Shown: positions 4,050 to 14,236 of the stretch, in pieces
Position numbering within the stretch: position 1 is the first letter of the stretch
How the letters are laid out: every line of letters begins with the position of its first letter
Virus record (IMG/VR): IMGVR_UViG_3300045116_000511
Origin: a virus
Strand: one strand, 5' to 3'
DNA: 14,236 nucleotides
Program-made: the position numbers and the translations under genes
The notes under the pieces: generated by a model
Told to the model about the DNA's origin: nothing
Databases searched by the model: none
The model's input: only the letters and a program-made list of their open reading frames with translations

Positions 4050-5417
4050 CTACTTCACAGCAGAGGCTACTGGAGTCACAGGCGCAACCGGGCCGGCGGC
4101 TGGTACATCTCGGACAATGCCCATACTCCGCATGAGCCACATGCTCACCAGATTGCCCATCCAATCTTGTTGCCCACCGCTGCCGCCACCCAACATGAGG
4201 GTCTGTGGGGCTTGAATGGCAGCCAGTTTGGCGGCGACCTCCACATCGCGCTTTGCGGCGATCTCAGCAAGCGTTCGTTCCTTCTCAGTGATAGCACCAC
4301 CTTTGGCGATTTTCTCTGATTGTGCCTCAGCAAGTACTCGGATGGCCTTTGCCTCAGCTTCGGCCGTTTGGACTTTGACTTCAGCAGCTTTCTTTTCCAA
4401 TTCGGCAACGGATAGCGCCTGCTGGGCTTTGGTCTCAGCCTCTTTCTTCCCCTGATCAGCAACAGCAACTTTCTGCTGGGCTTCGAGCGTTGCCACTTCC
4501 TTCTGCCGCTGAGCGTTGGTCACAGCAGTCACCTTTTCGACATTCGCTGCGGCTTCTGATTCCGCTGCCTGTCGCTTGCCTTTTTCAACCACCATTAAAC
4601 GCTGTTGCACTTCTTGCTCACGATCTGCCTTGGCTTGCTCGGCCTTCTGGAAAGACTCTTTCTTTGTGGCAAATCGTTCTAAAGTCTGTTTGTCGTAGTT
4701 GGTTGAAGTCACGCTGAATTGCAGCACTTCAAAACCGTATTCTTTCAGTGGGCTGATCTGACCGATCTTGGGTTTGCCCTTTTCGTCACGAATGATTTCT
4801 GTAGCAAAAACCGTGATTGGGTTCCCTTTCTCATCAGTCGCATCATGGAAGGTCTTCTCAATATGTCGCATCTCGTAAATGCCGTTACGCAACATGTCTT
4901 CGACAATCTGGGTAAATTCGGCTTTACGAGCGGATTGATGCTCTGATGAGGACATAAGTGGAGCGGCGGCCTTGCAGCAATTAATCATGTGCGCATGGAC
5001 TGCTGCTGCCATGTTATCCACGCTGCCGCTGAATTCGCGGTGAGCTTTTAGCCTCAATTCTTCAGTGCGAGGTGTGGCAAAGCGGATCATCGTTCCGAGG
5101 CCAGCAGTACCACCATCATTGAAGGTCACACGGTTGGTAGGATCACCTTCCTCCGCATGTCCCTTCTCACCCCCAAATTCATGTTGTACCGCACGTGGAT
5201 AAGTCCAGACATGGGCAAACATCTTCATGTACCAGCCTGGCTCATCCCTTACAGAAACGCTACCAGTTACCGACTGAATAATCTGCCAATCTTGGGCGTT
5301 ATTCAGTCCAAACCCACCAGTCACAAGGACTATCAGGACAATCAGCACAAAGATGCCGAGTCCTCCATAGAAAATGTGCCGCTTGCCAAGTCGAAACTCG
5401 CCAGTGTCTCTTGTCAT
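4050..5417 (-). CDS. SPFH/band-7 domain protein, flotillin-like (N-terminal TM, SPFH core, long Ala/Glu/Lys/Gln coiled coil).
   Basis: From ATG 5417 (SD AAGGAActaagATG): MTRDTGEFRLGKRHIFYGGLGIFVLIVLIVLVTGGFG (TM), then an SPFH-like core, then EA-rich heptads (...AEAEAKAIRVLAEAQSEKIAKGG...) as in flotillin/YqiK-type proteins. TAG stop at 4050-4052. The track's longer form from ATG 5474 adds FCMKGT x2 encoded by the tandem repeat. Confidence 0.85.
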   Translation of the reverse strand: MTRDTGEFRLGKRHIFYGGLGIFVLIVLIVLVTGGFGLNNAQDWQIIQSVTGSVSVRDEPGWYMKMFAHVWTYPRAVQHEFGGEKGHAEEGDPTNRVTFNDGGTAGLGTMIRFATPRTEELRLKAHREFSGSVDNMAAAVHAHMINCCKAAAPLMSSSEHQSARKAEFTQIVEDMLRNGIYEMRHIEKTFHDATDEKGNPITVFATEIIRDEKGKPKIGQISPLKEYGFEVLQFSVTSTNYDKQTLERFATKKESFQKAEQAKADREQEVQQRLMVVEKGKRQAAESEAAANVEKVTAVTNAQRQKEVATLEAQQKVAVADQGKKEAETKAQQALSVAELEKKAAEVKVQTAEAEAKAIRVLAEAQSEKIAKGGAITEKERTLAEIAAKRDVEVAAKLAAIQAPQTLMLGGGSGGQQDWMGNLVSMWLMRSMGIVRDVPAAGPVAPVTPVASAVK

Positions 5418-5421
5418 CTTA

Positions 5422-5457
5422 GTTCCTTTCATGCAGAATGTTCCTTTCATGCAGAAT
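5422..5457. repeat. Perfect tandem direct repeat, 2 x 18 bp (gttcctttcatgcagaat), in the SPFH gene leader.
   Basis: Read directly: 5422-5439 is identical to 5440-5457. On the minus strand each unit reads ATTCTGCATGAAAGGAAC, so it carries an in-frame ATG and an AAGGAA SD-like element. Confidence 0.9.
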
Positions 5458-5482
5458 ATCACACCATGTGACATTACTCTAA

Positions 5483-5531: not shown

Positions 5532-6032
5532 CTATTTGTCTTTAACGCAATTGACTAACACGTTGGCAGCCTTCGTTCTCTGATCACTCCACCCACCACT
5601 TGATGGGATTTCTTCCAGGATGGCTTGCAGTTGTTCTCCAGTTAGTTTCGGCCAGTCAGCAAAGTTTTTCGTTGCCTTTGCACGATCAGCGATCAGGTCC
5701 ACTTTGTCTTGATCTCTCACCGCAGCCACGGCGGCGTATAGAGCAGCCCACTCACCGGGCATCGTTTGAGCAATCGCCTGCCGTTTCGCTTTAGCCTCAT
5801 CAGAAGCAGCAAGCACGTTGCTTATGGCCGGAGCAATCACATAGATGGACATCAGAACCAGAAACGCAGCTCCGGTCACAATCCAGATTGCTTCGATGGG
5901 TACATAAAGGGCAAAGGGAAACACGGGCACCAGAATTGTACGATGCCCGCAGGCAGGACAGTAAGTTCCCCCGCTTTTCAGCTTAAGACCATGCTTCTCG
6001 CAAACTGGATTATTACACTTTTTGCTACGCAT
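5532..6032 (-). CDS. Zinc-ribbon (CxxC-x15-CxxC) protein with two TM helices and a cytoplasmic C-terminal domain, 166 aa.
   Basis: MRSKKCNNPVCEKHGLKLKSGGTYCPACGHRT, then TILVPVFPFALYVPIEAIWIVTGAAFLVLMSIYVIAPAI. ATG 6032 overlaps the end of the upstream ORF by 8 nt. Confidence 0.65.
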   Translation of the reverse strand: MRSKKCNNPVCEKHGLKLKSGGTYCPACGHRTILVPVFPFALYVPIEAIWIVTGAAFLVLMSIYVIAPAISNVLAASDEAKAKRQAIAQTMPGEWAALYAAVAAVRDQDKVDLIADRAKATKNFADWPKLTGEQLQAILEEIPSSGGWSDQRTKAANVLVNCVKDK

Positions 6033-6531
6033 GCGAATTCATGATCTCTTCTTCCGTTGTTCGGCGGACGATAAGGCGGAAGCCTTCAATGACAATAGGC
6101 GTCTTTTCCCATTGACAATCCGATTGTGCTCGCAACTCCACAAACTTCCTGGCTCGTTCTTGTAGCGTTTTGATCTCAGCCTCGGTCGGTTTGGCGTCAA
6201 AGAAGATCGCAACGCTATTATAAGCTGGCCACTGATGTTTTACTTTCTTGGCTTTCGGATCGGTTTCTCGGTAATGTTGGCCGTTACCGTCATTGACCCA
6301 ACCCGGAGTGGCCCAAAGACTATACGGCAACGGACCATATTCGCCATACAGCGACACGAGATGTTCGTTGGGTTCGTCGTCCTCCCCAACTTTGTTTTCC
6401 TTGCGATACCGCTTGATCCATTCATCCTCGCCTTCTTCATTGTCGTAACCATTAAAACCGACAACGAAACCGCACATCTCGCGCTCGAAGTTACCGGCAT
6501 AACTGTCGGTATCGATGATAAAGACATACAA
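6025..6531 (-). CDS. Hypothetical acidic protein (C-terminal 168 codons as listed); the true N-terminus is unresolved.
   Basis: The track start at 6531 is TTG. The first ATG is at 6477. The frame stays open upstream to 6762 and encodes a zinc ribbon. Confidence 0.5.
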   Translation of the reverse strand: MYVFIIDTDSYAGNFEREMCGFVVGFNGYDNEEGEDEWIKRYRKENKVGEDDEPNEHLVSLYGEYGPLPYSLWATPGWVNDGNGQHYRETDPKAKKVKHQWPAYNSVAIFFDAKPTEAEIKTLQERARKFVELRAQSDCQWEKTPIVIEGFRLIVRRTTEEEIMNSHA

Positions 6532-6789
6532 TTCATCAGGCGGTAAATCTACTGAGTAAGTCCCTGGATATTTTTGATTGACCGCGGCCGTAATGGCATC
6601 ATCGCTGTCATTACCGAACGAAACCTCGCCACAGTTTCGGCATTTAGAAATCGGAACTTCTGGAACTGTGATGTCAACCAGCTCGCCTTTTACTCGAACT
6701 TTGAGGGCATAGTTTTCCAGCGTAGCCGGATAAACTTCTTGCTTCAGGCAAGTAACACAACGCTAGGGATACGGCTTCGACTTAGGCAT
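6532..6789 (-). other. In-frame upstream extension of the 6025-6531 ORF encoding a CxxC-x28-CxxC zinc ribbon with no canonical start; an upstream in-frame ATG (6789..6787) is separated from it by an amber TAG (6763-6765).
   Basis: Own translation: ATG CCT AAG TCG AAG CCG TAT CCC TAG | CGT TGT GTT ACT TGC ... reads MPKSKPYP*RCVTCLKQEVYPATLENYALKVRVKGELVDITVPEVPISKCRNCGEVSFGNDSDDAITAAVNQKYPGTYSVDLPPDE-LYVFIIDTD. Between the TAG and the TTG at 6531 there are 77 stop-free codons and no ATG/GTG/TTG. Confidence 0.5.
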
Positions 6790-7786
6790 CTTTCTCAAGA
6801 TAAGAGTCAGATACGATCTTGAGCATCACGCGCCCAATCTCCGCATCATTGCGTTCTTTCTCTGGGATGATCACGCAGCCTTCCCGGACATGATCAGCAC
6901 CGGGCCAGGTACTGCGCCCTTCCGAGAGTGAAAGAGCAATCTTGGCGTCAAACGGCCCTTTGTAGAGCAGAGGCACCCATGCCACTTTCGGGGTGACCAT
7001 CGCATAGGCTTCGTCAAAATCCAACCACTGATTCTGTTTCAGAACAGCAAAAGCGGCAAAAAAGACATCGTTCCTTTTTGCCCCGTACTTGAGCTTCTGG
7101 ACCTGCCCAAAAACTTCGCCGTACAGAATCAGAGTCGGGTGTTCCTTGCACCACTCTCCAATAGCTGGATTTCGGTGGAATGCCATCCACCAGTAGTTCT
7201 TGTCATCTTCAGCCAGCCAGTTGGTCCGCGAGCCGCAGAACTGTTTCCATTCCCCATCCTTGTCCTGGGCGTAGGTATATCTGGCGTTAGCTCCATGAAT
7301 CTTCTCGGTGATTACAACGGGCTCGCCAGCCGTAAACATCTGGAAGTAGCGCTGGTAGCATTCGACATCGAACTTAGGACAATACAGACCCGAAGGCCCA
7401 CCAACAAATAGCCCACCCGAAGACATGGGCAGCGGGGGCTCATATCGCTCAATGCCAAGTTCGGCAATGACGTTAGCGCCCACGGATCGATCCAGCAATT
7501 CCGGGGGCACCGGGATTAGCAGTCCCTGACTGAGCGCCCCCTTGAATCGACGGACTCGAATGCGTTCCTGCGGTTTACCATCTTCGCGCTTCAGAAACGC
7601 AAAAGATGGATTAGAAATTGGCACGAGATAATCCGGTGGGATATAGATCGCCAGATCACCCTCTTTGAAGTCGTCTTTGCCGATACAGCACTGCCAACCC
7701 CAGATGCGGGTAATTGCAAGCCGATCAGCGTTGGCGTGAGGCTCAATTTTACCGATTTGGACAATTTCAATTCGATGTTCGCTCAT
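6782..7786 (-). CDS. ATP-dependent RNA ligase, Rnl2-like nucleotidyltransferase with an N-terminal OB-like domain (Rnl5-type domain order), 334 aa.
   Basis: From ATG 7786 (GGAG 9 nt upstream); the codon at the track start 7807 is TTG. Motif I VVITEKIHGANARY (KxHGxN as in T4 Rnl2), motif III-like LILYGEVFGQ, motif IV-like DVFFAAFAV, motif V-like EGCVIIPEKE. N-terminal RIEIVQIGKIEPHANADRLAITRIWGWQCCIGKDDFKEGDLAIYIPPD resembles a tRNA-binding OB fold. Confidence 0.8.
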   Translation of the reverse strand: MSEHRIEIVQIGKIEPHANADRLAITRIWGWQCCIGKDDFKEGDLAIYIPPDYLVPISNPSFAFLKREDGKPQERIRVRRFKGALSQGLLIPVPPELLDRSVGANVIAELGIERYEPPLPMSSGGLFVGGPSGLYCPKFDVECYQRYFQMFTAGEPVVITEKIHGANARYTYAQDKDGEWKQFCGSRTNWLAEDDKNYWWMAFHRNPAIGEWCKEHPTLILYGEVFGQVQKLKYGAKRNDVFFAAFAVLKQNQWLDFDEAYAMVTPKVAWVPLLYKGPFDAKIALSLSEGRSTWPGADHVREGCVIIPEKERNDAEIGRVMLKIVSDSYLEKDA

Positions 7787-8217
7787 GCGGCATTGCTCCG
7801 TTTCCAAACAACAAACTCATAAAACTGCTGTCTGTTATTAAACTTCCAGCCGAACTTTTTATGAAAACTGATATGACATTTTCGGCACAAGCAAACTCCA
7901 TTGTCTAAGTCCACTCTCAAAGAGGGATTGGCGTGGTAGCTTTCAAGGTGGTGACTCGCTAACTCACCGCCGTGTTTGTTGCATACGACACATCTAAAAC
8001 CATCTCTTTCCTTTATCGCGATTCTCCATGCGCGGAACTCTTCTCTAATACGCCGATCCTGTCTCTCTGAATCGGTGAGTCGCGAATTCCAGGCTGGATT
8101 CTTATCTCCCGTCTGAGATTTCAGTCTTTCGTAATTCCAGCAACCACATGACTGAGTCGTTCCGCCTATAAGCGAATTGCGGAAAACAACGCATACGTTA
8201 CCACATTCTCGCCGACG
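7783..8217 (-). CDS. HNH endonuclease (His-Me finger). The open frame runs from the in-frame TAA at 8218-8220 to a TGA overlapping the RNA-ligase ATG, with no ATG/GTG/TTG before the catalytic core. Candidate ATT start at 8049 with an AGGA SD.
   Basis: Own translation: ...FRAWRIAIKERDGFRCVVCNKHGGELASHHLESYHANPSLRVDLDNGVCLCRKCHISFHKKFGW... (CxxC..HH..N..CxC..CH..H). It is not in the ORF track. The first canonical in-frame start, TTG, lies after the HH dyad. ATT (8049..8047) is preceded by AGGA with 7-nt spacing. A frame-1 ATG at 8194 plus a 1-nt change in the T4 run 8183-8186 would also give a full ORF. Confidence 0.55.
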   Translation of the reverse strand, partial: RRRECGNVCVVFRNSLIGGTTQSCGCWNYERLKSQTGDKNPAWNSRLTDSERQDRRIREEFRAWRIAIKERDGFRCVVCNKHGGELASHHLESYHANPSLRVDLDNGVCLCRKCHISFHKKFGWKFNNRQQFYEFVVWKRSNAA

Positions 8218-8230
8218 TTACGCGCTGTCA

Positions 8231-8497
8231 TCATGGCATCTTGCCCTGCTGAAATTCAGCATAGGTTACCGAGCCACCAGTCGGGCCGACCCCAGTAACA
8301 ATGAAGTTACCAGCCGAGCGACGGATGGTATGAACACCACGCTTACCCTTACGTCGCTCAAAGGGTTTGTACCGAATCTCCTGGCAGCCGCTCCCGTTAC
8401 ATTGGAGGCAGACTACACCAACGCCTGGTGGCTCGGCAAAGCCGCGGTAAATGCCACTTCCCTCACAAGCACCACACTCTGCTTTAACCGTTTCCAT
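8231..8497 (-). CDS. DnaJ-type zinc-finger protein (two CxxCxGxG repeats, one predicted Zn centre), 88 aa.
   Basis: METVKAECGACEGSGIYRGFAEPPGVGVVCLQCNGSGCQEIRY. SD GAGGcggaacATG. Ends in a double stop TGATGA. Confidence 0.65.
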   Translation of the reverse strand: METVKAECGACEGSGIYRGFAEPPGVGVVCLQCNGSGCQEIRYKPFERRKGKRGVHTIRRSAGNFIVTGVGPTGGSVTYAEFQQGKMP

Positions 8498-8900
8498 GTT
8501 CCGCCTCGATTAGCATGCGGCGCTTTAATCGACTCGCGGCAATTGCCCGTTCAAATTGCAATTTGGCCATCACGGTCGGCCCATCGTGGCATGCCTTGTT
8601 GTAGGCGGTCCACAGAGCCGTCCGCAGGTCACGACCCTCAACCTTTGCAACCGCCGCTTCAAATGCCCATCGGCGGCCGAAGGCGCGGAAAAAACTGTCA
8701 CCACCGCCACATTGGGCGCGATGCTCGGCAATCACATCGTATTGCCCATTGCCGACTTCATGGAGAATCTTAACCTCGGTAAACGGCTTTTCGTCCTTGA
8801 CGGACAAAACCTGTGCCGAAATTTTCTTCGGCACATGCGCTGGGTTAGAGTGAAAGACCTTGATACAAAACGATTGACCGCCGTGATTCAACCGGATCAT
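8484..8900 (-). CDS. Hypothetical 138-aa protein.
   Basis: ATG 8900 with an excellent SD (AAGGAGcaaccATG). TAA 8484-8486. No motif recognised. Confidence 0.6.
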   Translation of the reverse strand: MIRLNHGGQSFCIKVFHSNPAHVPKKISAQVLSVKDEKPFTEVKILHEVGNGQYDVIAEHRAQCGGGDSFFRAFGRRWAFEAAVAKVEGRDLRTALWTAYNKACHDGPTVMAKLQFERAIAASRLKRRMLIEAEHGNG

Positions 8901-8909
8901 GGTTGCTCC

Positions 8910-9245
8910 TTATTTCTTCAACACAGTATACGCTGCAATAATCCGTTTGGCTCTTTCATTGGACTCTTTGGTATTGCCACATCTATCTGGGTGGAATCGG
9001 AGCATCAGCATGCGATACGCATGCTTGATTTCGTCCTGAGTCGCATTCGGGCTAACACCAAGAATCACCCACGGTGAATCTGGTTGGCCGGAAAGAATCT
9101 CTTCGGCTTCTTCTCGGCCCATCGCCTCAGAGAAAGCTTGACGCCACTGAGCGGCGCTCCCGGCCGGGCCGACGTAAGTACCGTATGGCGACTGGTCAGT
9201 CCAGACGTTACGCTTTGGTTTATTGGGATCGCGCTGTCGAGGCAT
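8910..9245 (-). CDS. J-domain (DnaJ N-terminal domain) protein, 111 aa, with the J-domain at the C-terminus.
   Basis: WVILGVSPNATQDEIKHAYRMLMLRFHPDRCGNTKESNERAKRIIAAYTVLKK carries the HPD tripeptide and flanking helices. SD GGTGG. First gene downstream of a consensus promoter. Confidence 0.85.
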   Translation of the reverse strand: MPRQRDPNKPKRNVWTDQSPYGTYVGPAGSAAQWRQAFSEAMGREEAEEILSGQPDSPWVILGVSPNATQDEIKHAYRMLMLRFHPDRCGNTKESNERAKRIIAAYTVLKK

Positions 9246-9271
9246 CGTACCACCAATTAGCCGTCATGCGT

Positions 9272-9300
9272 ATAATACCGATTACTGGAAGAATTGTCAA
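9272..9300 (-). promoter_or_regulatory. Consensus sigma70-type promoter (TTGACA, 17-bp spacer, TATTAT) driving the minus-strand cluster that begins with the J-domain gene.
   Basis: Plus-strand tgtcaa at 9295-9300 and ataata at 9272-9277 read on the minus strand as TTGACA-17-TATTAT. The predicted TSS is near 9265 and the start codon is at 9245. Confidence 0.5.
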
Positions 9301-9361
9301 CCACGAATGATAGTAGTGCAGCCAAAGAAAAAAATTTCCCTGAATTTTTCAGAGGGCTGAA

Positions 9362-9390
9362 TTGACAGCACGTAGAATATGTCATATTCT
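9362..9390 (+). promoter_or_regulatory. Divergent plus-strand promoter (TTGACA, 17-bp spacer, TATTCT) whose -10 is embedded in a 17-bp perfect palindrome AGAATAT-gtc-ATATTCT (9374-9390). Operator-like.
   Basis: Read directly: TTGACA 9362-9367, a 17-nt spacer, TATTCT 9385-9390. The inverted repeat has 7-bp arms. An A-tract at 9325-9340 lies between the divergent promoters. Confidence 0.45.
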
Positions 9391-9499
9391 TCCATCGGCG
9401 TGGTAGGATCAACTCGTCGTTGATGCTGCCTTTGTCCTGTCACAAGACAGGCCGGGCTAAGCCCGCAGTGAGTGGAATCCCGACTGTAAAAGGAGAACG

Positions 9500-9616
9500 A
9501 TGATGTGGTTTGTTAATTTTTTTAGCTGGTTCAGCACCGCTGGTACGTTTATTGAGGGAGTCCAGAACTTCTTCGCATGGCTCACCTCGATTTTCAACCA
9601 GATCACCACTGCGTAG
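9500..9616 (+). CDS. Small hydrophobic 38-aa peptide (MMWFVNFFSWFSTAGTFIEGVQNFFAWLTSIFNQITTA). Membrane peptide or type I toxin-like.
   Basis: Strong SD AAGGAG 4 nt before ATG 9500. Double stop TAGTAA. A ~100-nt leader with three hairpins (9408-9424, 9436-9451, 9453-9465). Followed by a strong intrinsic terminator. Below the ORF-track size cutoff. Confidence 0.5.
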   Translation: MMWFVNFFSWFSTAGTFIEGVQNFFAWLTSIFNQITTA

Positions 9617-9628
9617 TAACAGCTGAGC

Positions 9629-9661
9629 AAAAAGGAAGGGCTCAATGCCCTTCCTTTTTCG
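9629..9661. terminator. Bidirectional rho-independent terminator (stem aaaggaagggc / gcccttccttt, loop tcaat, A-run before and T-run after).
   Basis: 9631-9657 forms an 11-bp perfect stem, followed by TTTTT on the plus strand and preceded by AAAAA, so it is also a terminator on the minus strand. Confidence 0.7.
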
Positions 9662-9869
9662 TTCCGTCAAACAAATCATCAGGCCATAGTATCTGCTTAT
9701 CACGCAGCGCGACTACGTCTCGGTAGAGAGACTTTAGAATCTTCACTCTTTCAAGGGCAAGGCCGTCGTGGTTCTTTAGAAGATCAGGTCGCAGAATTAG
9801 AAGTGTTTCGACACTCAGCAAAATTTCGACATTATGAATGCAAGTGGCGAATACGTCGAGTTTATTCAT
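9642..9869 (-). CDS. Hypothetical 75-aa protein whose stop lies inside the terminator hairpin.
   Basis: ORF track with ATG at 9869 and a weak SD. Protein-like composition (MNKLDVFATCIHNVEILLSVETLLILRPDLLKNHDG...). Confidence 0.4.
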   Translation of the reverse strand: MNKLDVFATCIHNVEILLSVETLLILRPDLLKNHDGLALERVKILKSLYRDVVALRDKQILWPDDLFDGTKKEGH

Positions 9870-10021
9870 CTTTTTCGAGCGAAAGAAACCTCGAAATCTT
9901 TAGTTTCTGGTAGAAATTCGCTCAACTCCTATTGTATAATAACACTGTTCTTTGACAACTACAAAAGAGAGCTATTGAGGAGCAAGCTCTGAAGTCTTTA
10001 GCTTCGGAGCAGTTGACTGAG

Positions 10022-10819
10022 TTAGTCCCAATCCGATCCTTGCTCAGTGGGCTTCCGGTCACGCAGCCACCGCTCGTAATCCCAAACATAAATCCCAAGC
10101 TCCCCGGATTTATTCACCATGCCAGTTTGACCTTCAAACCATTTCGAGAACCGCTTCACTTCCTCCGCTGAGTGATGCTCATCCAGCATCGCTTTTGTGA
10201 TGAATTTGATACCAGACTCGGTTTTGTAGAGTTTCTGAGGAATCCTACTCCCAGCAACGATGACCGGTTTTGACTTTTCCTCGCCGTATTTGTACTGGAA
10301 ACTGGGAGAACTCAATCGATCCGGGTCTTCCTTAAATCGAAGCGCCTGCTGCTTCAAAGCGTCGAGCAATTCCGTCTGATGCCCCGGATACAAATGAATC
10401 ACTGCCGGATGCCCATTCTGCGGGATGAAGACCATCGAGGTGCCCCAATATTCCCGAGCACTCTCGCAGGGAATCAGGACCAGCCTCGATCCGCACGCGC
10501 AGTCATCATCACAGCGGGTGATTAACACCGTAGGATGCTTCTTCGCCCACTTGGTCACTTCTTGGATAAGTTCGTGACCTTCCCACTTCCACTGACGACC
10601 AGCGGCTCCACAGGGACAAAACTTTTCAAGGAATCCATGCCAAATCTTGAACAGCTTCAGAGAATTGGCATTCATGCGCTTGCCACGCTCTCGAATAATC
10701 TTGCACTCCGACGCCAGACCAGGCCGGGATACTTGCTCCCCACAGTTACAGCGGAAGGCCATTTCCTTCCCATCTCCGCTGTATGAGCAGAGATTAAACT
10801 GATGTACATGCTTTTTCAT
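10022..10819 (-). CDS. Cys-rich hypothetical 265-aa protein with several CxC/CxxC clusters.
   Basis: FRCNCGE, FCPCGAAG, RCDDDCACGSRLVLIPC. ATG 10819 with an AGAGAGAA SD-like element. Followed 15 nt downstream by the hairpin 9985-10010. Confidence 0.65.
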   Translation of the reverse strand: MKKHVHQFNLCSYSGDGKEMAFRCNCGEQVSRPGLASECKIIRERGKRMNANSLKLFKIWHGFLEKFCPCGAAGRQWKWEGHELIQEVTKWAKKHPTVLITRCDDDCACGSRLVLIPCESAREYWGTSMVFIPQNGHPAVIHLYPGHQTELLDALKQQALRFKEDPDRLSSPSFQYKYGEEKSKPVIVAGSRIPQKLYKTESGIKFITKAMLDEHHSAEEVKRFSKWFEGQTGMVNKSGELGIYVWDYERWLRDRKPTEQGSDWD

Positions 10820-11426: not shown

Positions 11427-12158
11427 TTGTCAATGGTTGGGTATGTTCTAACGAAGAGGATTGTGACGAATTTCGCTGCATATATGTTGATGGAAACCAG
11501 AACGTGCAAAACCTGCGGTATTGTCAAGAACATTCGATCATTCCCCGAGAGATACGCAATAAAGGGAGGCAAGAAATACAGGCGTCACCAGTGCAACAGC
11601 TGTCGTTGCCGACGATACAAACCGCGCTATCGAAAAACTTTTAGAGATATCGCGAAACGATGCAGGGCAAAGTACAATGCAAACAAATCTGAGATGAAAA
11701 AGAAACTAATGGCTGCTGTATGGCAAGAAAAGTGCATTATATGTGGGGAGCCAGACCCCGTCATATTGTGCTTCCACCATCGATCAAAGATCGATAAAAA
11801 ATTCTGCGTTTCCTACGGATTCACACACTCTTATGGTTTTGACACTCTACTGGATGAAGCCAAAAAGTGCGATGTAATATGTCATAATTGCCACGCAAAG
11901 AACCACTCAAACCAGTTGCCAAGCCGCCACAAAGATAGGATATTTGAACACATAGGCGACAACAAATGCAAGACATGCGGTGAAAGTGACGCTAGGACAC
12001 TTTGTTTCCATCACCACGACCCGTCAAAAAAAGAGTTCAAACTATCTTGTAGATTTCGGCGCGGCAGATCATGGGAACAGGTATTATCTGAGGCCAGCAA
12101 ATGTATATTGCTATGTGCCAACTGTCATATCAGACTCCACGCAACCCGAGCTTTTTAA
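11427..12158 (+). CDS. Tandem-HNH nuclease (two CxxCG..FHH..KC..C(H/A)NCH modules) with an N-terminal CxxC..CxxC zinc ribbon. Freestanding homing-endonuclease-like, AT-rich, and the only confident plus-strand protein gene.
   Basis: Module 1: CIICGEPDPVILCFHHRSKIDKKF...EAKKCDVICHNCHAKNH. Module 2: CKTCGESDARTLCFHHHDPSKKEF...EASKCILLCANCHIRLH. N-terminus: CKTCG...CNSCRC. The start is ambiguous: the track start 11427 is TTG, and ATGs occur at 11433, 11484 and 11490. The AAGAGGA at 11453-11459 is not well spaced to any of them. TAA 12156-12158 overlaps the convergent SWIM gene by 29 nt. Confidence 0.7.
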   Translation: MSMVGYVLTKRIVTNFAAYMLMETRTCKTCGIVKNIRSFPERYAIKGGKKYRRHQCNSCRCRRYKPRYRKTFRDIAKRCRAKYNANKSEMKKKLMAAVWQEKCIICGEPDPVILCFHHRSKIDKKFCVSYGFTHSYGFDTLLDEAKKCDVICHNCHAKNHSNQLPSRHKDRIFEHIGDNKCKTCGESDARTLCFHHHDPSKKEFKLSCRFRRGRSWEQVLSEASKCILLCANCHIRLHATRAF

Positions 12159-13011: not shown

Positions 13012-14236
13012 TTAGTCTGTGTCGCTCTCAGTGGACTGGATGCCAGCGCCGAGCCGGTTTACAATGTTCGCCAACGGAGTCCCGTTAAAGACCTTCGTCA
13101 GCACCTCAACCACGCTCTCGCCGCCAATCAGTGACTGGATCGAAATCGCCTTTGCCGCCTTGGTCAGCACATCGTCGCGATTCAGAGCCAGCAGAGCCTC
13201 TGCCATCTTGCCATCGGCAGCTTTGAAGCGACTGATGGTTGATTCGCTCTCTGCCACAAGTTGCCTCAAAGTCAGCTCCAGACGTTTCTGCTCAACGTCA
13301 TGGTCATGACCGTCTTTCTCCACCACTCGCTTCATGTTGGCGTTGTGACGGATGTCCTCGACTACCTCATTGGCTTGAGCCTGCTTTTGCTGTCCCTCAA
13401 CCTTCTTCATGATGGCTTCGAGATTCTGCGCCTCGACTTCCATTTCCTTACGCAGAATCTCTTGTTCTGTGGACAGCTGCTGTTTGCGGGTATCCGCAGT
13501 CGCCACATTGACTTGCTGGTTCAGTTTCTCCTGCTCCAGCTTGCCCGACACATTACGCCGAGCATTCTGCAAGTCAATGTTGGCTTTCACCGCCGCAAAC
13601 TGCGCCGACATGAGCAGATTTGCGACGTTCTGGTCAGCAATTGTGAAACCCAGGACTTCGACATCCTGGACGATCATGCCGTTTTCCTTGAAAGGCATGC
13701 CCTTGCGGACGCCCTCGACCGAGTGGCCCAGAATGGCGTCACGAATGATCGGGACGTGATTAGCATAGAACTCTTCGATTGTGTGAGTCTTGACCACACC
13801 TTTGAGGACCGAGCGGACGTGATCGCAAAGCAGCTTGACGTAGTTCTCGACTTCAAACCACTTGTCCGGCTCACCGTCGAAGTTAACGAGCAGCGAAATC
13901 TTCACGGAGACCGAAACGTGATCGCTGGTCTCGACATCGATGATGTCAGAAACTTTGTTGTTGCGCGTCCGCAAGTAAACAGTGCGCTCCAACTTGTCGG
14001 TATTCTTCGGCTTGCCTGTTGACAGTTCCAGCACTTCCAGTGACTCGTCGTAGTCAAGCAGAATCGTAGTCGGACCCTGCTCAACGCGCCGACCACCTTT
14101 CTTGTCTACCACCATGACGGCATACCCTGTCCACACGTTGATGGTGGGGACGCCATCATATTTGGTATCCAAGGTGATCGAGCGGGGCTGCGTATACGAC
14201 GTACCACGCTTGATTGTATCTGCTGCGGATAGTTGG
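13012..14236 (-). CDS. Second SPFH/band-7 domain protein (C-terminal >400 aa); the 5' end lies beyond the window.
   Basis: The track 'start' at 14172 is TTG and the frame stays open to the window edge (..QLSAADTIKRGTSYTQPRSITLDTKYDGVPTINVWTGYAVMVVDKKGG..). SPFH-like core (...VPIIRDAILGHSVEGVRKGMPFKENGMIVQDVEVLGFTIADQNVANLLMSAQFAAVKANIDLQNARR...), then a Gln/Glu/Lys-rich coiled coil. TAA at 13012-13014. Confidence 0.8.
   Translation of the reverse strand, partial: QLSAADTIKRGTSYTQPRSITLDTKYDGVPTINVWTGYAVMVVDKKGGRRVEQGPTTILLDYDESLEVLELSTGKPKNTDKLERTVYLRTRNNKVSDIIDVETSDHVSVSVKISLLVNFDGEPDKWFEVENYVKLLCDHVRSVLKGVVKTHTIEEFYANHVPIIRDAILGHSVEGVRKGMPFKENGMIVQDVEVLGFTIADQNVANLLMSAQFAAVKANIDLQNARRNVSGKLEQEKLNQQVNVATADTRKQQLSTEQEILRKEMEVEAQNLEAIMKKVEGQQKQAQANEVVEDIRHNANMKRVVEKDGHDHDVEQKRLELTLRQLVAESESTISRFKAADGKMAEALLALNRDDVLTKAAKAISIQSLIGGESVVEVLTKVFNGTPLANIVNRLGAGIQSTESDTD

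What the first reader, a model, noticed from the sequence alone, without database searches (positions are those of the whole stretch)
7783..8262. Unannotated HNH endonuclease gene with no canonical start codon between DnaJ-zinc-finger gene and RNA ligase
A 145-codon open frame carries an unmistakable HNH core (RDGFRCVVCNKHGGELASHHLESYHANPSLRVDLDNGVCLCRKCHISFH) and ends in a TGA that overlaps the ligase ATG. It is missed by the ORF track because no ATG, GTG or TTG occurs before the catalytic HH. Three candidate explanations follow. (a) An ATT start at 8049 with AGGA placed 7 nt upstream would give an 88-aa minimal HNH. (b) An ATG at 8194 in the neighbouring frame opens a 31-codon ORF, and a 1-nt change in the T4/A4 run at 8183-8186 would fuse it in frame, pointing to an indel, a pseudogene or slippage. 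(c) An in-frame ATG at 8262 is followed 14 codons later by TAA (8218-8220), the same ATG-short-peptide-stop-body pattern seen at the neighbouring zinc-ribbon gene. Two adjacent genes with this pattern are unlikely to be coincidence and may reflect nonsense alleles or an unusual initiation or recoding mechanism.
Basis: partly seen in the sequence, partly recalled or inferred. Interest (0 to 1): 0.7.

Follow-up and report, generated by a model that had tools for sequence, protein, structure and literature searches.

The report
Truncated phage HNH endonuclease gene remnant
The start-less HNH reading frame is real, but it is the leftover 3' part of a mobile phage homing-endonuclease gene that has lost its first ~94 codons, start codon included, which is a common and ordinary fate of such genes.

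Summary
On the minus strand a 144-codon frame (8217-7786, TGA 7785-7783 overlapping the RNA-ligase ATG) encodes an intact HNH nuclease domain. It has no ATG, GTG or TTG before the catalytic His-His.

The full-length relatives are P0001 (248 aa, 58% identical, also directly upstream of an RNA ligase) and P0002 (229 aa). In a library search that found 24,249 related proteins, the listed matches mostly have the same layout. They carry 1-4 N-terminal zinc-knuckle modules (GxLxV...WxCxCxCG...SCGC) ahead of the HNH domain.

Homology to the window begins at P0001 residue 94/95, in the middle of the second module. It stops at the TAA (8220-8218), 10 nt after the stop of an intact upstream gene. The gene is therefore 5'-truncated: start, ribosome-binding site and most of the presumed DNA-binding region are gone.

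The T4 run lies inside gapless in-frame homology, so there is no indel at that spot. The neighbouring zinc-ribbon gene is a normal 88-codon ATG gene.

HNH genes of two families are present in some ligase relatives and absent in others, as homing endonuclease genes are. The retained domain shows no decay, so weak expression from ATT 8049 cannot be excluded. Overall this is ordinary.

The parts
7783..8217 (-). HNH remnant: a 144-codon open frame plus TGA. It corresponds to residues 94/95-236 of the 248-aa homologue P0001.
   Evidence: 58% identity, no gaps, E = 3e-60; every family column conserved at 90% or more is retained.
8218..8220 (-). In-frame TAA that closes the frame upstream. It sits at or next to the limit of homology (P0001 has AAA, Lys93, here).
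8221..8230 (-). 10-nt junction (TGACAGCGCG) between the zinc-ribbon gene stop and the TAA. The deletion or recombination breakpoint lies here or within a few codons downstream.
   Evidence: Codon matches to P0001 are 0-1 of 3 upstream of 8220 and mostly 1-3 of 3 downstream.
8140..8208 (-). Half of a zinc-knuckle module (ECG...SCGC). The first half (GxLxV...WxCxC) is missing, and the two expected Cys positions read Arg.
   Evidence: AF2 gives pLDDT below 50 for residues 1-36. In P0001 the module is a three-strand plus helix unit and the cut falls in strand 2.
7810..8085 (-). Intact HNH (beta-beta-alpha-metal) nuclease domain: CVVC, HH, N, CxxCH and FH motifs all present.
   Evidence: AF2 block-mean pLDDT is about 79-95 from residue ~51 (67 for residues 41-50). 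Nearest solved folds are the GVE2 HNH (5H0M), Cas5-HNH, McrA and Gme HNH.
8047..8060 (-). Candidate non-canonical start: AGGA (8060-8057), a 7-nt spacer, then in-frame ATT (8049-8047). It would give an 88-aa product.
   Evidence: duplex with the anti-SD, -4.3 kcal/mol. Expression not shown.
8166..8234 (-). 22-codon ORF in another frame (MMTARNVGENVVTYALFSAIRL*). Its ATG overlaps the zinc-ribbon gene stop as ATGA. This is a relic coupling start that arises from the conserved ...Met-Pro-stop (ATG CCA TGA) gene end.
   Evidence: In L014 the same ATGA starts the downstream gene.
8183..8186 (-). T4 run proposed as an indel or slippage site. It lies inside gapless in-frame homology, so it is native sequence.
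8231..8497 (-). Upstream neighbour: an intact 88-aa zinc-ribbon (CxxC x2) protein gene with a normal ATG start.
   Evidence: 29 homologues, mostly 87-93 aa, covering 94-100% of it.
6782..7786 (-). Downstream neighbour: RNA ligase (TIGR02306 / PF09414 + PF21189). Its GGAG ribosome-binding site (7799-7796) lies inside the 3' end of the HNH remnant.
   Evidence: M1, S2 and H4 invariant in homologues.

Best explanation
Positions 8217-7783 are the 3' two-thirds of a free-standing HNH homing-endonuclease gene. The family has 1-4 N-terminal zinc-knuckle modules, presumed to bind DNA, followed by a C-terminal HNH nuclease domain.

Such a gene once sat between the zinc-ribbon gene and the RNA ligase, a position where relatives carry HNH genes sporadically. 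A deletion or illegitimate recombination then removed about 94 codons. Lost with them were the start codon, the ribosome-binding site, one whole knuckle module and the first half of the second. The rest was joined 10 nt behind the stop of the upstream gene.

What remains is co-transcribed with its neighbours (inferred from the same-strand, overlapping gene layout). It has no efficient way to be translated. It most likely makes little or no protein and no site-specific homing enzyme. It persists because the event is recent and/or because its 3' end carries the ligase ribosome-binding site.

Shown: the truncation, the intact catalytic domain, the intact neighbours and the patchy distribution. 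Inferred: the homing function of the ancestor, the DNA-binding role of the knuckles and the lack of expression.
For: 1. **Family architecture.**
   - P0001 (248 aa) and P0002 (229 aa) each have two knuckle modules plus the HNH domain.
   - An exhaustive HMMER search found 24,249 related representatives.
   - Nearly all of the 150 listed place the match in the C-terminal part of 157-391-aa proteins. Where the match starts at query residues 2-5, at least 33 residues precede it. The two shortest, P0202 (114 aa) and P0273 (143 aa), instead begin at query residue 37.
   - 137 of 152 have at least one complete CxCxC...SCGC module by a strict pattern.
2. **Boundary of homology.** It starts at 8214-8220, which is P0001 residue 94/95, and nothing upstream matches. 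No N-terminal fragment is found elsewhere in the 14-kb contig.
3. **The cut falls inside a folded unit.** In the P0001 model each module is three strands plus a helix, and the window keeps only the last strand and the helix. In the window model this part has pLDDT below 50, while the HNH domain block means are about 79-95.
4. **Both neighbours are intact.** The zinc-ribbon protein is 88 aa, in line with its homologues. The ligase N-terminus MSxH is conserved.
5. **Mobile-element distribution.**
   - Among close ligase relatives, an HNH gene lies directly upstream in L001 (same family, plus a second HNH_5-type gene), in L005 (HNH_5 fused to the ligase) and in L077 (HNH_5).
   - None is present in L004, L006 or L078.
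   - In 58 more distant viral ligase loci, searches with these two HNH types found none directly upstream of the ligase. Three loci have knuckle-type matches about 2 kb upstream and one has an HNH_5-type match just downstream.
   - G+C dips to 0.42-0.49 against 0.53-0.58 in the flanks.
   - Cultured-phage relatives are annotated as free-standing HNH homing endonucleases.
6. **Precedent.** 56 of 268 HNH endonuclease genes in Skunavirus genomes are partially deleted remnants (PMC12724721).
7. **Reproducibility.** The sequence is reproduced 100% over 4,318 bp in a Logan assembly.
Against: - The retained 144 codons show no decay at all: no stop, no frameshift, and every highly conserved residue is kept. 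That fits a very recent truncation but equally fits continued selection for an expressed product.
- An in-frame ATT with a plausibly spaced AGGA exists, and stand-alone minimal HNH proteins of about 100-140 aa occur naturally (P0004, P0273).
- No close relative (more than 70% identical) of this genome was found, so neither the timing of the event nor the conservation of the truncated form could be tested.
- Homing activity has not been shown for any member of this particular family here.
Confidence: 0.72

Rival explanations
1. The remnant is still expressed as a minimal, knuckle-less HNH nuclease from a near-cognate start. Candidates are ATT 8049 with AGGA (88 aa), CTG 8124, or ATA 8169, which overlaps the TAG of the 22-codon coupling ORF as ATAG (re-initiation). 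It would be a domesticated or low-dose nuclease.
For: - The catalytic domain is fully intact and confidently folded.
- The SD-like AGGA lies 7 nt before the ATT, with -4.3 kcal/mol, inside the range of real genes in the window.
- Natural minimal members exist (P0004 101 aa, P0273 143 aa).
- Near-cognate codons do initiate in E. coli (bioRxiv 10.1101/063800).
Against: - Near-cognate starts give only 1-2% of AUG, and only two AUU-initiated genes are confirmed in E. coli.
- ATA 8169 has no SD (+1.5 kcal/mol) and CTG 8124 a weak one.
- The product would lack every complete DNA-binding module.
- No conservation data are available. The truncation edge inside a fold looks accidental rather than designed.
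Confidence: 0.15
2. Programmed frameshifting or polymerase slippage at the T4 run joins an upstream ATG to the HNH frame. This would be ATG 8234/8231 by a -1 shift (or T4 to T5), or ATG 8194 by a +1 shift (or T4 to T3).
For: - ATG 8234 is in a classic ATGA coupling overlap with the upstream stop.
- A one-base change in the T-run would fuse either ATG to the HNH frame.
- A UUU-to-UUC +1 re-pairing is possible on paper.
Against: - There is no X XXY YYZ heptamer. The -1 re-pairing of UUU onto GUU is poor. No stop or rare codon follows for a +1 shift (sequence).
- T4 is too short for efficient transcriptional slippage (established knowledge).
- The ATGA is a by-product of the conserved Met-Pro-stop end of the zinc-ribbon gene.
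- Frame-A homology already covers the region upstream of the T-run.
- No homologue has a two-frame layout.
Confidence: 0.04
3. Assembly or sequencing artefact: a chimeric join or a collapsed region near 8221-8230 hides an intact 5' part.
For: The source is a metagenome contig and only one genome carries this form. The breakpoint is abrupt.
Against: - A second assembly (Logan, SRR35384393) is 100% identical over window 5724-10041.
- The flanking genes are intact and in normal operon spacing.
- Truncated HNH genes are common in isolate genomes.
- Whether the two assemblies used independent reads is unknown.
Confidence: 0.04
4. The HNH is not a selfish homing gene but a functional partner of the RNA ligase, a nuclease-ligase pair. 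The start-less copy would then be translated by coupling.
For: An HNH gene lies immediately upstream of the ligase in 4 of 7 close loci. It is fused in frame once (P0055) and overlaps as ATGA in the window and in L077.
Against: - Two HNH types with different N-terminal architecture and different Pfam matches occupy the site, and both occur in tandem in L001.
- No HNH gene is present in L004, L006 and L078, and neither of these two HNH types lies directly upstream of the ligase in 58 distant loci.
- A different ligase in L014 carries a LAGLIDADG domain instead.
- The same HNH family sits next to unrelated genes in Bacillus and Staphylococcus phages.
Confidence: 0.05

Closest known systems
Free-standing phage HNH homing endonucleases with N-terminal repeated zinc-knuckle modules (PHROG 374/119/5104 type; for example Bacillus phage Staley 'HNH homing endonuclease III' and Kayvirus HNH endonucleases)
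   Same: The C-terminal HNH domain is homologous at 35-41% identity over 83-94% of the remnant. The last half-knuckle and linker motifs (SCGC, NPxWN, LTDxER) match. The position between conserved phage genes is also similar.
   Different: The window copy lacks the start codon and every complete knuckle module. The annotated members examined are 240-306 aa with normal starts.
Partially deleted HNH endonuclease gene remnants in lactococcal Skunavirus genomes (PMC12724721)
   Same: [quoted passage not shown] They vary in presence and number between genomes and cluster at insertion hot spots.
   Different: [quoted passage not shown] Those remnants were still called as genes, whereas this one has no canonical start at all.
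ICP1 gp115-gp116, a homing endonuclease gene (HEG) inactivated by a frameshift (PMC10448857)
   Same: It is a nuclease plus DNA-binding-domain HEG disrupted so that the two parts are no longer one protein. The same paper reports that HEGs sit next to conserved genes and that repeated Zn-finger DNA-binding 'beads on a string' are typical.
   Different: There the lesion is a frameshift and both halves are still present. Here the DNA-binding half is deleted. The CapR/DUF723 Zn-finger profiles were not matched by the knuckle modules.
AUU-initiated genes infC and pcnB of E. coli
   Same: An in-frame ATT preceded by a Shine-Dalgarno-like AGGA at 7 nt.
   Different: There is no evidence of use or of conservation. 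In infC the AUU is a conserved autoregulatory feature. Here it is an internal Ile codon of a truncated gene, and aligned homologues have Asn at that position.

Membership tests
HNH (beta-beta-alpha-metal) nuclease superfamily | Catalytic His-(His)...Asn...His motif | tested here: met
   H89, H90, N106, H115 and H119 are present and 99-100% conserved in 152 relatives.
HNH (beta-beta-alpha-metal) nuclease superfamily | Two CxxC pairs for structural zinc | tested here: met
   C76/C79 and C111/C114 are present.
HNH (beta-beta-alpha-metal) nuclease superfamily | Profile match at the curated threshold | tested here: inconclusive
   Pfam PF01844 scores 21.3 bits against a cutoff of 21.4. PHROG HNH families reach E = 6e-12 and there are 6,755 library relatives at E <= 1e-10.
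HNH (beta-beta-alpha-metal) nuclease superfamily | Beta-beta-alpha fold | tested here: met
   The AF2 model has strands at 86-90 and 107-111 and a helix at 112-122, with block-mean pLDDT 84-95. The best Foldseek PDB matches are nearly all HNH nucleases (5H0M, 8YB6, 6GHC, 4H9D), although E-values are weak at 6e-3 or worse.
Knuckle-HNH free-standing endonuclease family (P0001-like) | At least one complete N-terminal GxLxV...WxCxCxCG...SCGC module | tested here: not met
   Only the second half (ECG...SCGC) is present, whereas 137 of 152 relatives have 1-4 complete modules.
Knuckle-HNH free-standing endonuclease family (P0001-like) | A complete ORF with a canonical start and a ribosome-binding site | tested here: not met
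   There is no ATG, GTG or TTG in frame between TAA 8220 and TTG 7920.
Knuckle-HNH free-standing endonuclease family (P0001-like) | Homologous C-terminal linker plus HNH domain | tested here: met
   58% identity to P0001 over 142 aa without gaps.
Homing endonuclease gene (functional class) | Sporadic presence or absence at one site among related genomes | tested here: met
   An HNH gene lies upstream of the ligase in the window, L001, L005 and L077. None is present in L004, L006 and L078, and neither of the two HNH types searched lies directly upstream of the ligase in 58 distant loci.
Homing endonuclease gene (functional class) | Cleaves the HEG-less allele and is copied into it by repair | not testable with these tools
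   This needs co-infection or in vitro cleavage assays.
Programmed ribosomal frameshift gene | A slippery site with a stimulator, and a two-frame layout conserved in homologues | tested here: not met
   There is no X XXY YYZ heptamer in 8234-8166, and the homologues are single-frame ORFs.
Non-AUG (AUU) initiated gene | A near-cognate codon with a correctly spaced SD | tested here: met
   AGGA, 7 nt, ATT; -4.3 kcal/mol.
Non-AUG (AUU) initiated gene | Evidence that the codon is used (a mapped N-terminus, or conservation as a start) | not testable with these tools
   No close relatives were found and there are no expression data.

The most novel reading that the evidence does not exclude
The truncated gene is not dead. 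It would be kept as a knuckle-less minimal HNH nuclease, made at a low level from the ATT at 8049 or by re-initiation after the 22-codon coupling ORF. That would be a natural case of a homing endonuclease domesticated by losing its DNA-binding modules and its canonical start.
Probability: 0.15. Interest if true: 0.35.

Novelty: new member of a known kind. Interest (0 to 1): 0.15.

Why it matters
Mostly for annotation. The 444-nt 'intergenic' gap between the zinc-ribbon gene and the RNA ligase is a decaying mobile-element remnant. It should be labelled as a truncated HNH pseudogene rather than as a gene with an exotic start or recoding.

It also marks the 5' edge of this RNA-ligase gene as a recurrent landing site for homing endonucleases in a group of uncultured large phages. 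That is useful for reading mosaicism in these genomes. No open question becomes testable because of it.

Tried and rejected
- **Close relatives of the genome.** I looked for them to see the ancestral state of the site. Megablast against phages found nothing. Viral-contig scans with the HNH and with the ligase gave one distant locus and none. The metagenome scan with the HNH gave six loci at 46% identity or less. The best ligase relatives are 67% identical. The timing of the truncation and any selection on the remnant therefore could not be tested.
- **Nonsense or readthrough from ATG 8262: rejected.** There is no homology upstream of the TAA, and that stretch is the 3' end of the zinc-ribbon gene in another frame.
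- **Fusion to the zinc-ribbon protein by frameshift: rejected.** The gene ends in a double stop (TGA TGA), and frame A has the TAA just downstream.
- **Alternative genetic code: rejected.** TAA, TAG and TGA all end well-supported genes in the window.
- **Intron or ribozyme context: rejected.** There are no Rfam matches in the window and both flanking genes are complete.
- **Split gene with the N-terminal half elsewhere on the contig:** no match.
- **Knuckle modules as CapR/DUF723/DUF4397-type Zn fingers:** hmmscan of the N-terminal halves at E <= 10 did not report these families, so the DNA-binding role is only an analogy.
- **Own promoter or terminator in the remnant:** nothing above shuffle expectation.
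- **dN/dS against P0001:** not attempted, because at 58% amino-acid identity synonymous sites are saturated and would say nothing about the period since the truncation.
Full report
**1. What is in the sequence**

All genes in this part of the window run on the minus strand. Reading 8262 to 7783 gives MLNFSRARCHDDSA*, then a 144-codon open frame, RRRECGNVCVVFRNSLIGGTTQSCGCW...HHLESYHAN...NGVCLCRKCHISFHKKFGW...SNAA*. Its TGA (7785-7783) overlaps the ATG (7786-7784) of an RNA ligase as ATGA.

The ligase belongs to TIGR02306 and PF09414 plus PF21189. Its N-terminus MSxH is invariant among 24 homologues. In the HNH frame the only ORF with a canonical start is a 45-codon TTG ORF that begins after the catalytic His-His.

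The nuclease identity is solid:
- Pfam HNH scores 21.3 bits, just below the 21.4 cutoff.
- PHROG HNH families reach E = 6e-12.
- tblastn of the full-length homologue P0001 against the window gives E = 3e-60.

An independent gene call on an identical Logan contig leaves the interval empty.

One detail is not. The neighbouring zinc-ribbon gene (8497-8231) is a plain 88-codon ATG ORF. Its 29 homologues are mostly 87-93 aa, ten of them exactly 88 aa, and cover 94-100% of it. There are therefore not two adjacent genes with an odd start.

**2. What it is**

The word-indexed protein search returned four relatives. The two long ones, P0001 (248 aa, 58% identity) and P0002 (229 aa), share one architecture. 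They have two copies of a module GxLTV...WxCxCxCG...(8-22 residues)...SCGC, then a linker (NPxWNPxLTDxER) and the HNH domain.

An exhaustive HMMER search of 1.84 billion representatives found 24,249 relatives at E <= 1e-3. Nearly all of the 150 listed are 157-391 aa with the match in their C-terminal part. Where the match starts at query residues 2-5, at least 33 residues precede it; the two shortest (P0202, P0273) begin at query residue 37. By a strict pattern, 137 of 152 have one to four complete modules.

The alignment of P0001 to the window starts at P0001 residue 95 (window 8214) and runs to the end without a gap. Codon by codon, identity to the P0001 gene is mostly 1-3 of 3 bases from 8220 downstream and 0-1 of 3 upstream. 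The window keeps only the second half of the last module. The two cysteines that should precede it read Arg, and the preceding codon is the TAA.

No fragment of the missing 94 residues is found anywhere else on the 14-kb contig. The upstream gene ends 10 nt before the TAA and is complete.

Structure predictions agree:
- In P0001 each module is a three-stranded sheet plus a helix, and the cut falls in the second strand.
- In the window protein residues 1-36 have pLDDT below 50. The HNH domain block means are about 79-95 from residue ~51.
- Its nearest solved folds are nearly all HNH nucleases, such as the GVE2 HNH 5H0M, Cas5-HNH and McrA, though at weak E-values.

The feature is therefore a 5'-truncated HNH endonuclease gene.

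**3. Why the ancestor is taken to be a homing endonuclease gene (inference)**

- In L001 the closest homologue sits in the same place, directly upstream of a ligase that is 63% identical. A second, HNH_5-type HNH gene lies just before it.
- L077 has an HNH_5-type gene overlapping the ligase start, and L005 has one fused in frame to the ligase.
- Equally close ligase relatives L004, L006 and L078 have no HNH gene there.
- In 58 more distant viral ligase loci, searches with these two HNH types found none directly upstream of the ligase.
- A different ligase in L014/L015 carries a LAGLIDADG domain.
- G+C falls to 0.42-0.49 in the remnant against 0.53-0.58 in the flanks.
- Members of the family in cultured Bacillus and Staphylococcus phages are free-standing genes between unrelated neighbours and are annotated as HNH homing endonucleases.

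Patchy presence, several nuclease types at one site and a position next to a conserved gene are the usual marks of free-standing homing endonuclease genes (PMC10448857). Homing itself was not and cannot be tested here.

**4.

(b) Indel at the T-run. The T4 run lies within the gapless frame-A alignment, and P0001 has ATT GTT TTG where the window has GTT GTT TTC. No base is missing or added there.

The two upstream ATGs in other frames are explained simply. ATG 8234 arises from the conserved end of the zinc-ribbon gene...Met-Pro-stop (ATG CCA TGA). In L014 that ATGA really is the start of the downstream gene. In the window it opens only a 22-codon ORF.

There is no slippery heptamer, and four T are too few for efficient transcriptional slippage (established knowledge).

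(c) ATG 8262, 14 codons, then TAA. That stretch is the 3' end of the zinc-ribbon gene read in another frame and has no similarity to the HNH family. All three stop codons terminate good genes in the window, so there is no sign of recoding.

(a) ATT 8049. This cannot be excluded.
- The AGGA spacing is right, and its pairing energy with the anti-SD (-4.3 kcal/mol) falls within the range of the window's genes, +0.5 to -8.5.
- Natural minimal HNH proteins begin about 10-13 residues upstream of that point (P0273, P0202).
- Near-cognate starts give only 1-2% of AUG in E. coli, and only two AUU genes are confirmed there (bioRxiv 10.1101/063800).

**5. Dead or alive?**

Within the retained 144 codons every family column conserved at 90% or more is kept. 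The eight departures from columns at 60% or more are mostly conservative, such as F/Y, I/V and S/A. That means either a recent truncation or continued selection, and no close relative exists to decide.

The 99-codon absence of ATG, GTG and TTG looks striking under a naive model (P = 0.002). It is much less so given the facts. Half of the family has no Met in this stretch. The neighbouring gene has an 85-codon run of the same kind.

The 3' end of the remnant carries the ligase GGAG (7799-7796). This gives a reason for at least that part to persist. I put about 0.7 on a silent or nearly silent remnant and about 0.15 on a weakly expressed minimal nuclease.

**6. Comparison with what is known, and novelty**

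Partially deleted HNH endonuclease genes are common. In 89 Skunavirus genomes, 56 of 268 HNH endonuclease genes are such remnants, concentrated at insertion hot spots (PMC12724721). ICP1 gp115-116 is a homing endonuclease gene inactivated by a frameshift (PMC10448857).

The present case is one more example, in an uncultured phage-like contig that also encodes DnaJ, an RNA ligase and a vault-like protein. It fails two membership tests for an intact member of its own family, namely a complete knuckle module and a canonical start. It passes those for the HNH nuclease domain.

**7. Verdict**

The best explanation is a 5'-truncated homing-endonuclease remnant. Interest is low.

Noticed in passing
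window 13012-14172 (-): A 386-aa ORF with the Pfam major-vault-protein shoulder domain (E = 5e-25) and a Vault_3 repeat (E = 3e-8). A vault-like protein is unusual on a phage-like contig.
   Followed up: no
window 4050-5474 (-): A 474-aa ORF with a weak SPFH/Band 7 match, 22.3 bits against a cutoff of 23.6. It may be related to the vault-shoulder-like gene above.
   Followed up: no
window 11427-12158 (+): An ORF on the opposite strand to its neighbours, TTG start, 243 aa. It carries two tandem HNH-like modules (CIICG...FHH...CHNCHAKNH and CKTCG...FHHH...CANCHIRLH) but has no Pfam hit. It may be a second, duplicated HNH nuclease gene.
   Followed up: partly
L001 5149-6457; L005 3266-4729; L077 600-1034; L014 1289-2851: The 5' edge of the RNA-ligase gene is a recurrent site for homing-endonuclease-like genes in related uncultured phages. 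L001 has two tandem HNH genes, L005 an HNH_5 domain fused in frame to the ligase (487 aa), and L077 an HNH_5 gene overlapping the ligase start. A different ligase in L014/L015 has an N-terminal LAGLIDADG domain.
   Followed up: partly
L077 2663-2755: A second, short copy of the ligase C-terminus (residues 302-332, 58% identity) lies about 600 nt downstream of the complete ligase gene. It looks like a recombination footprint.
   Followed up: no
L017 (Staphylococcus phage Biyabeda-mokiny_2, OP263968) 1818-2902: The family member in this cultured phage is annotated as two overlapping CDS, both called HNH endonuclease (60 aa and 306 aa). This suggests a frameshifted or decaying copy there too.
   Followed up: no
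window 8228-8236 and L013/L014 junctions: The conserved ...Gly-Lys/Arg-Met-Pro-stop end of the zinc-ribbon gene builds an ATGA (or TTGA) overlap. The downstream gene uses it in L014 and L013, although the downstream genes differ between genomes.
   Followed up: partly
L002 61-648: A relative of the HNH domain (46% identity) carries a different N-terminal region with repeated helix-turn-helix-like segments instead of zinc knuckles. This is an example of DNA-binding-domain swapping in this nuclease family.
   Followed up: no
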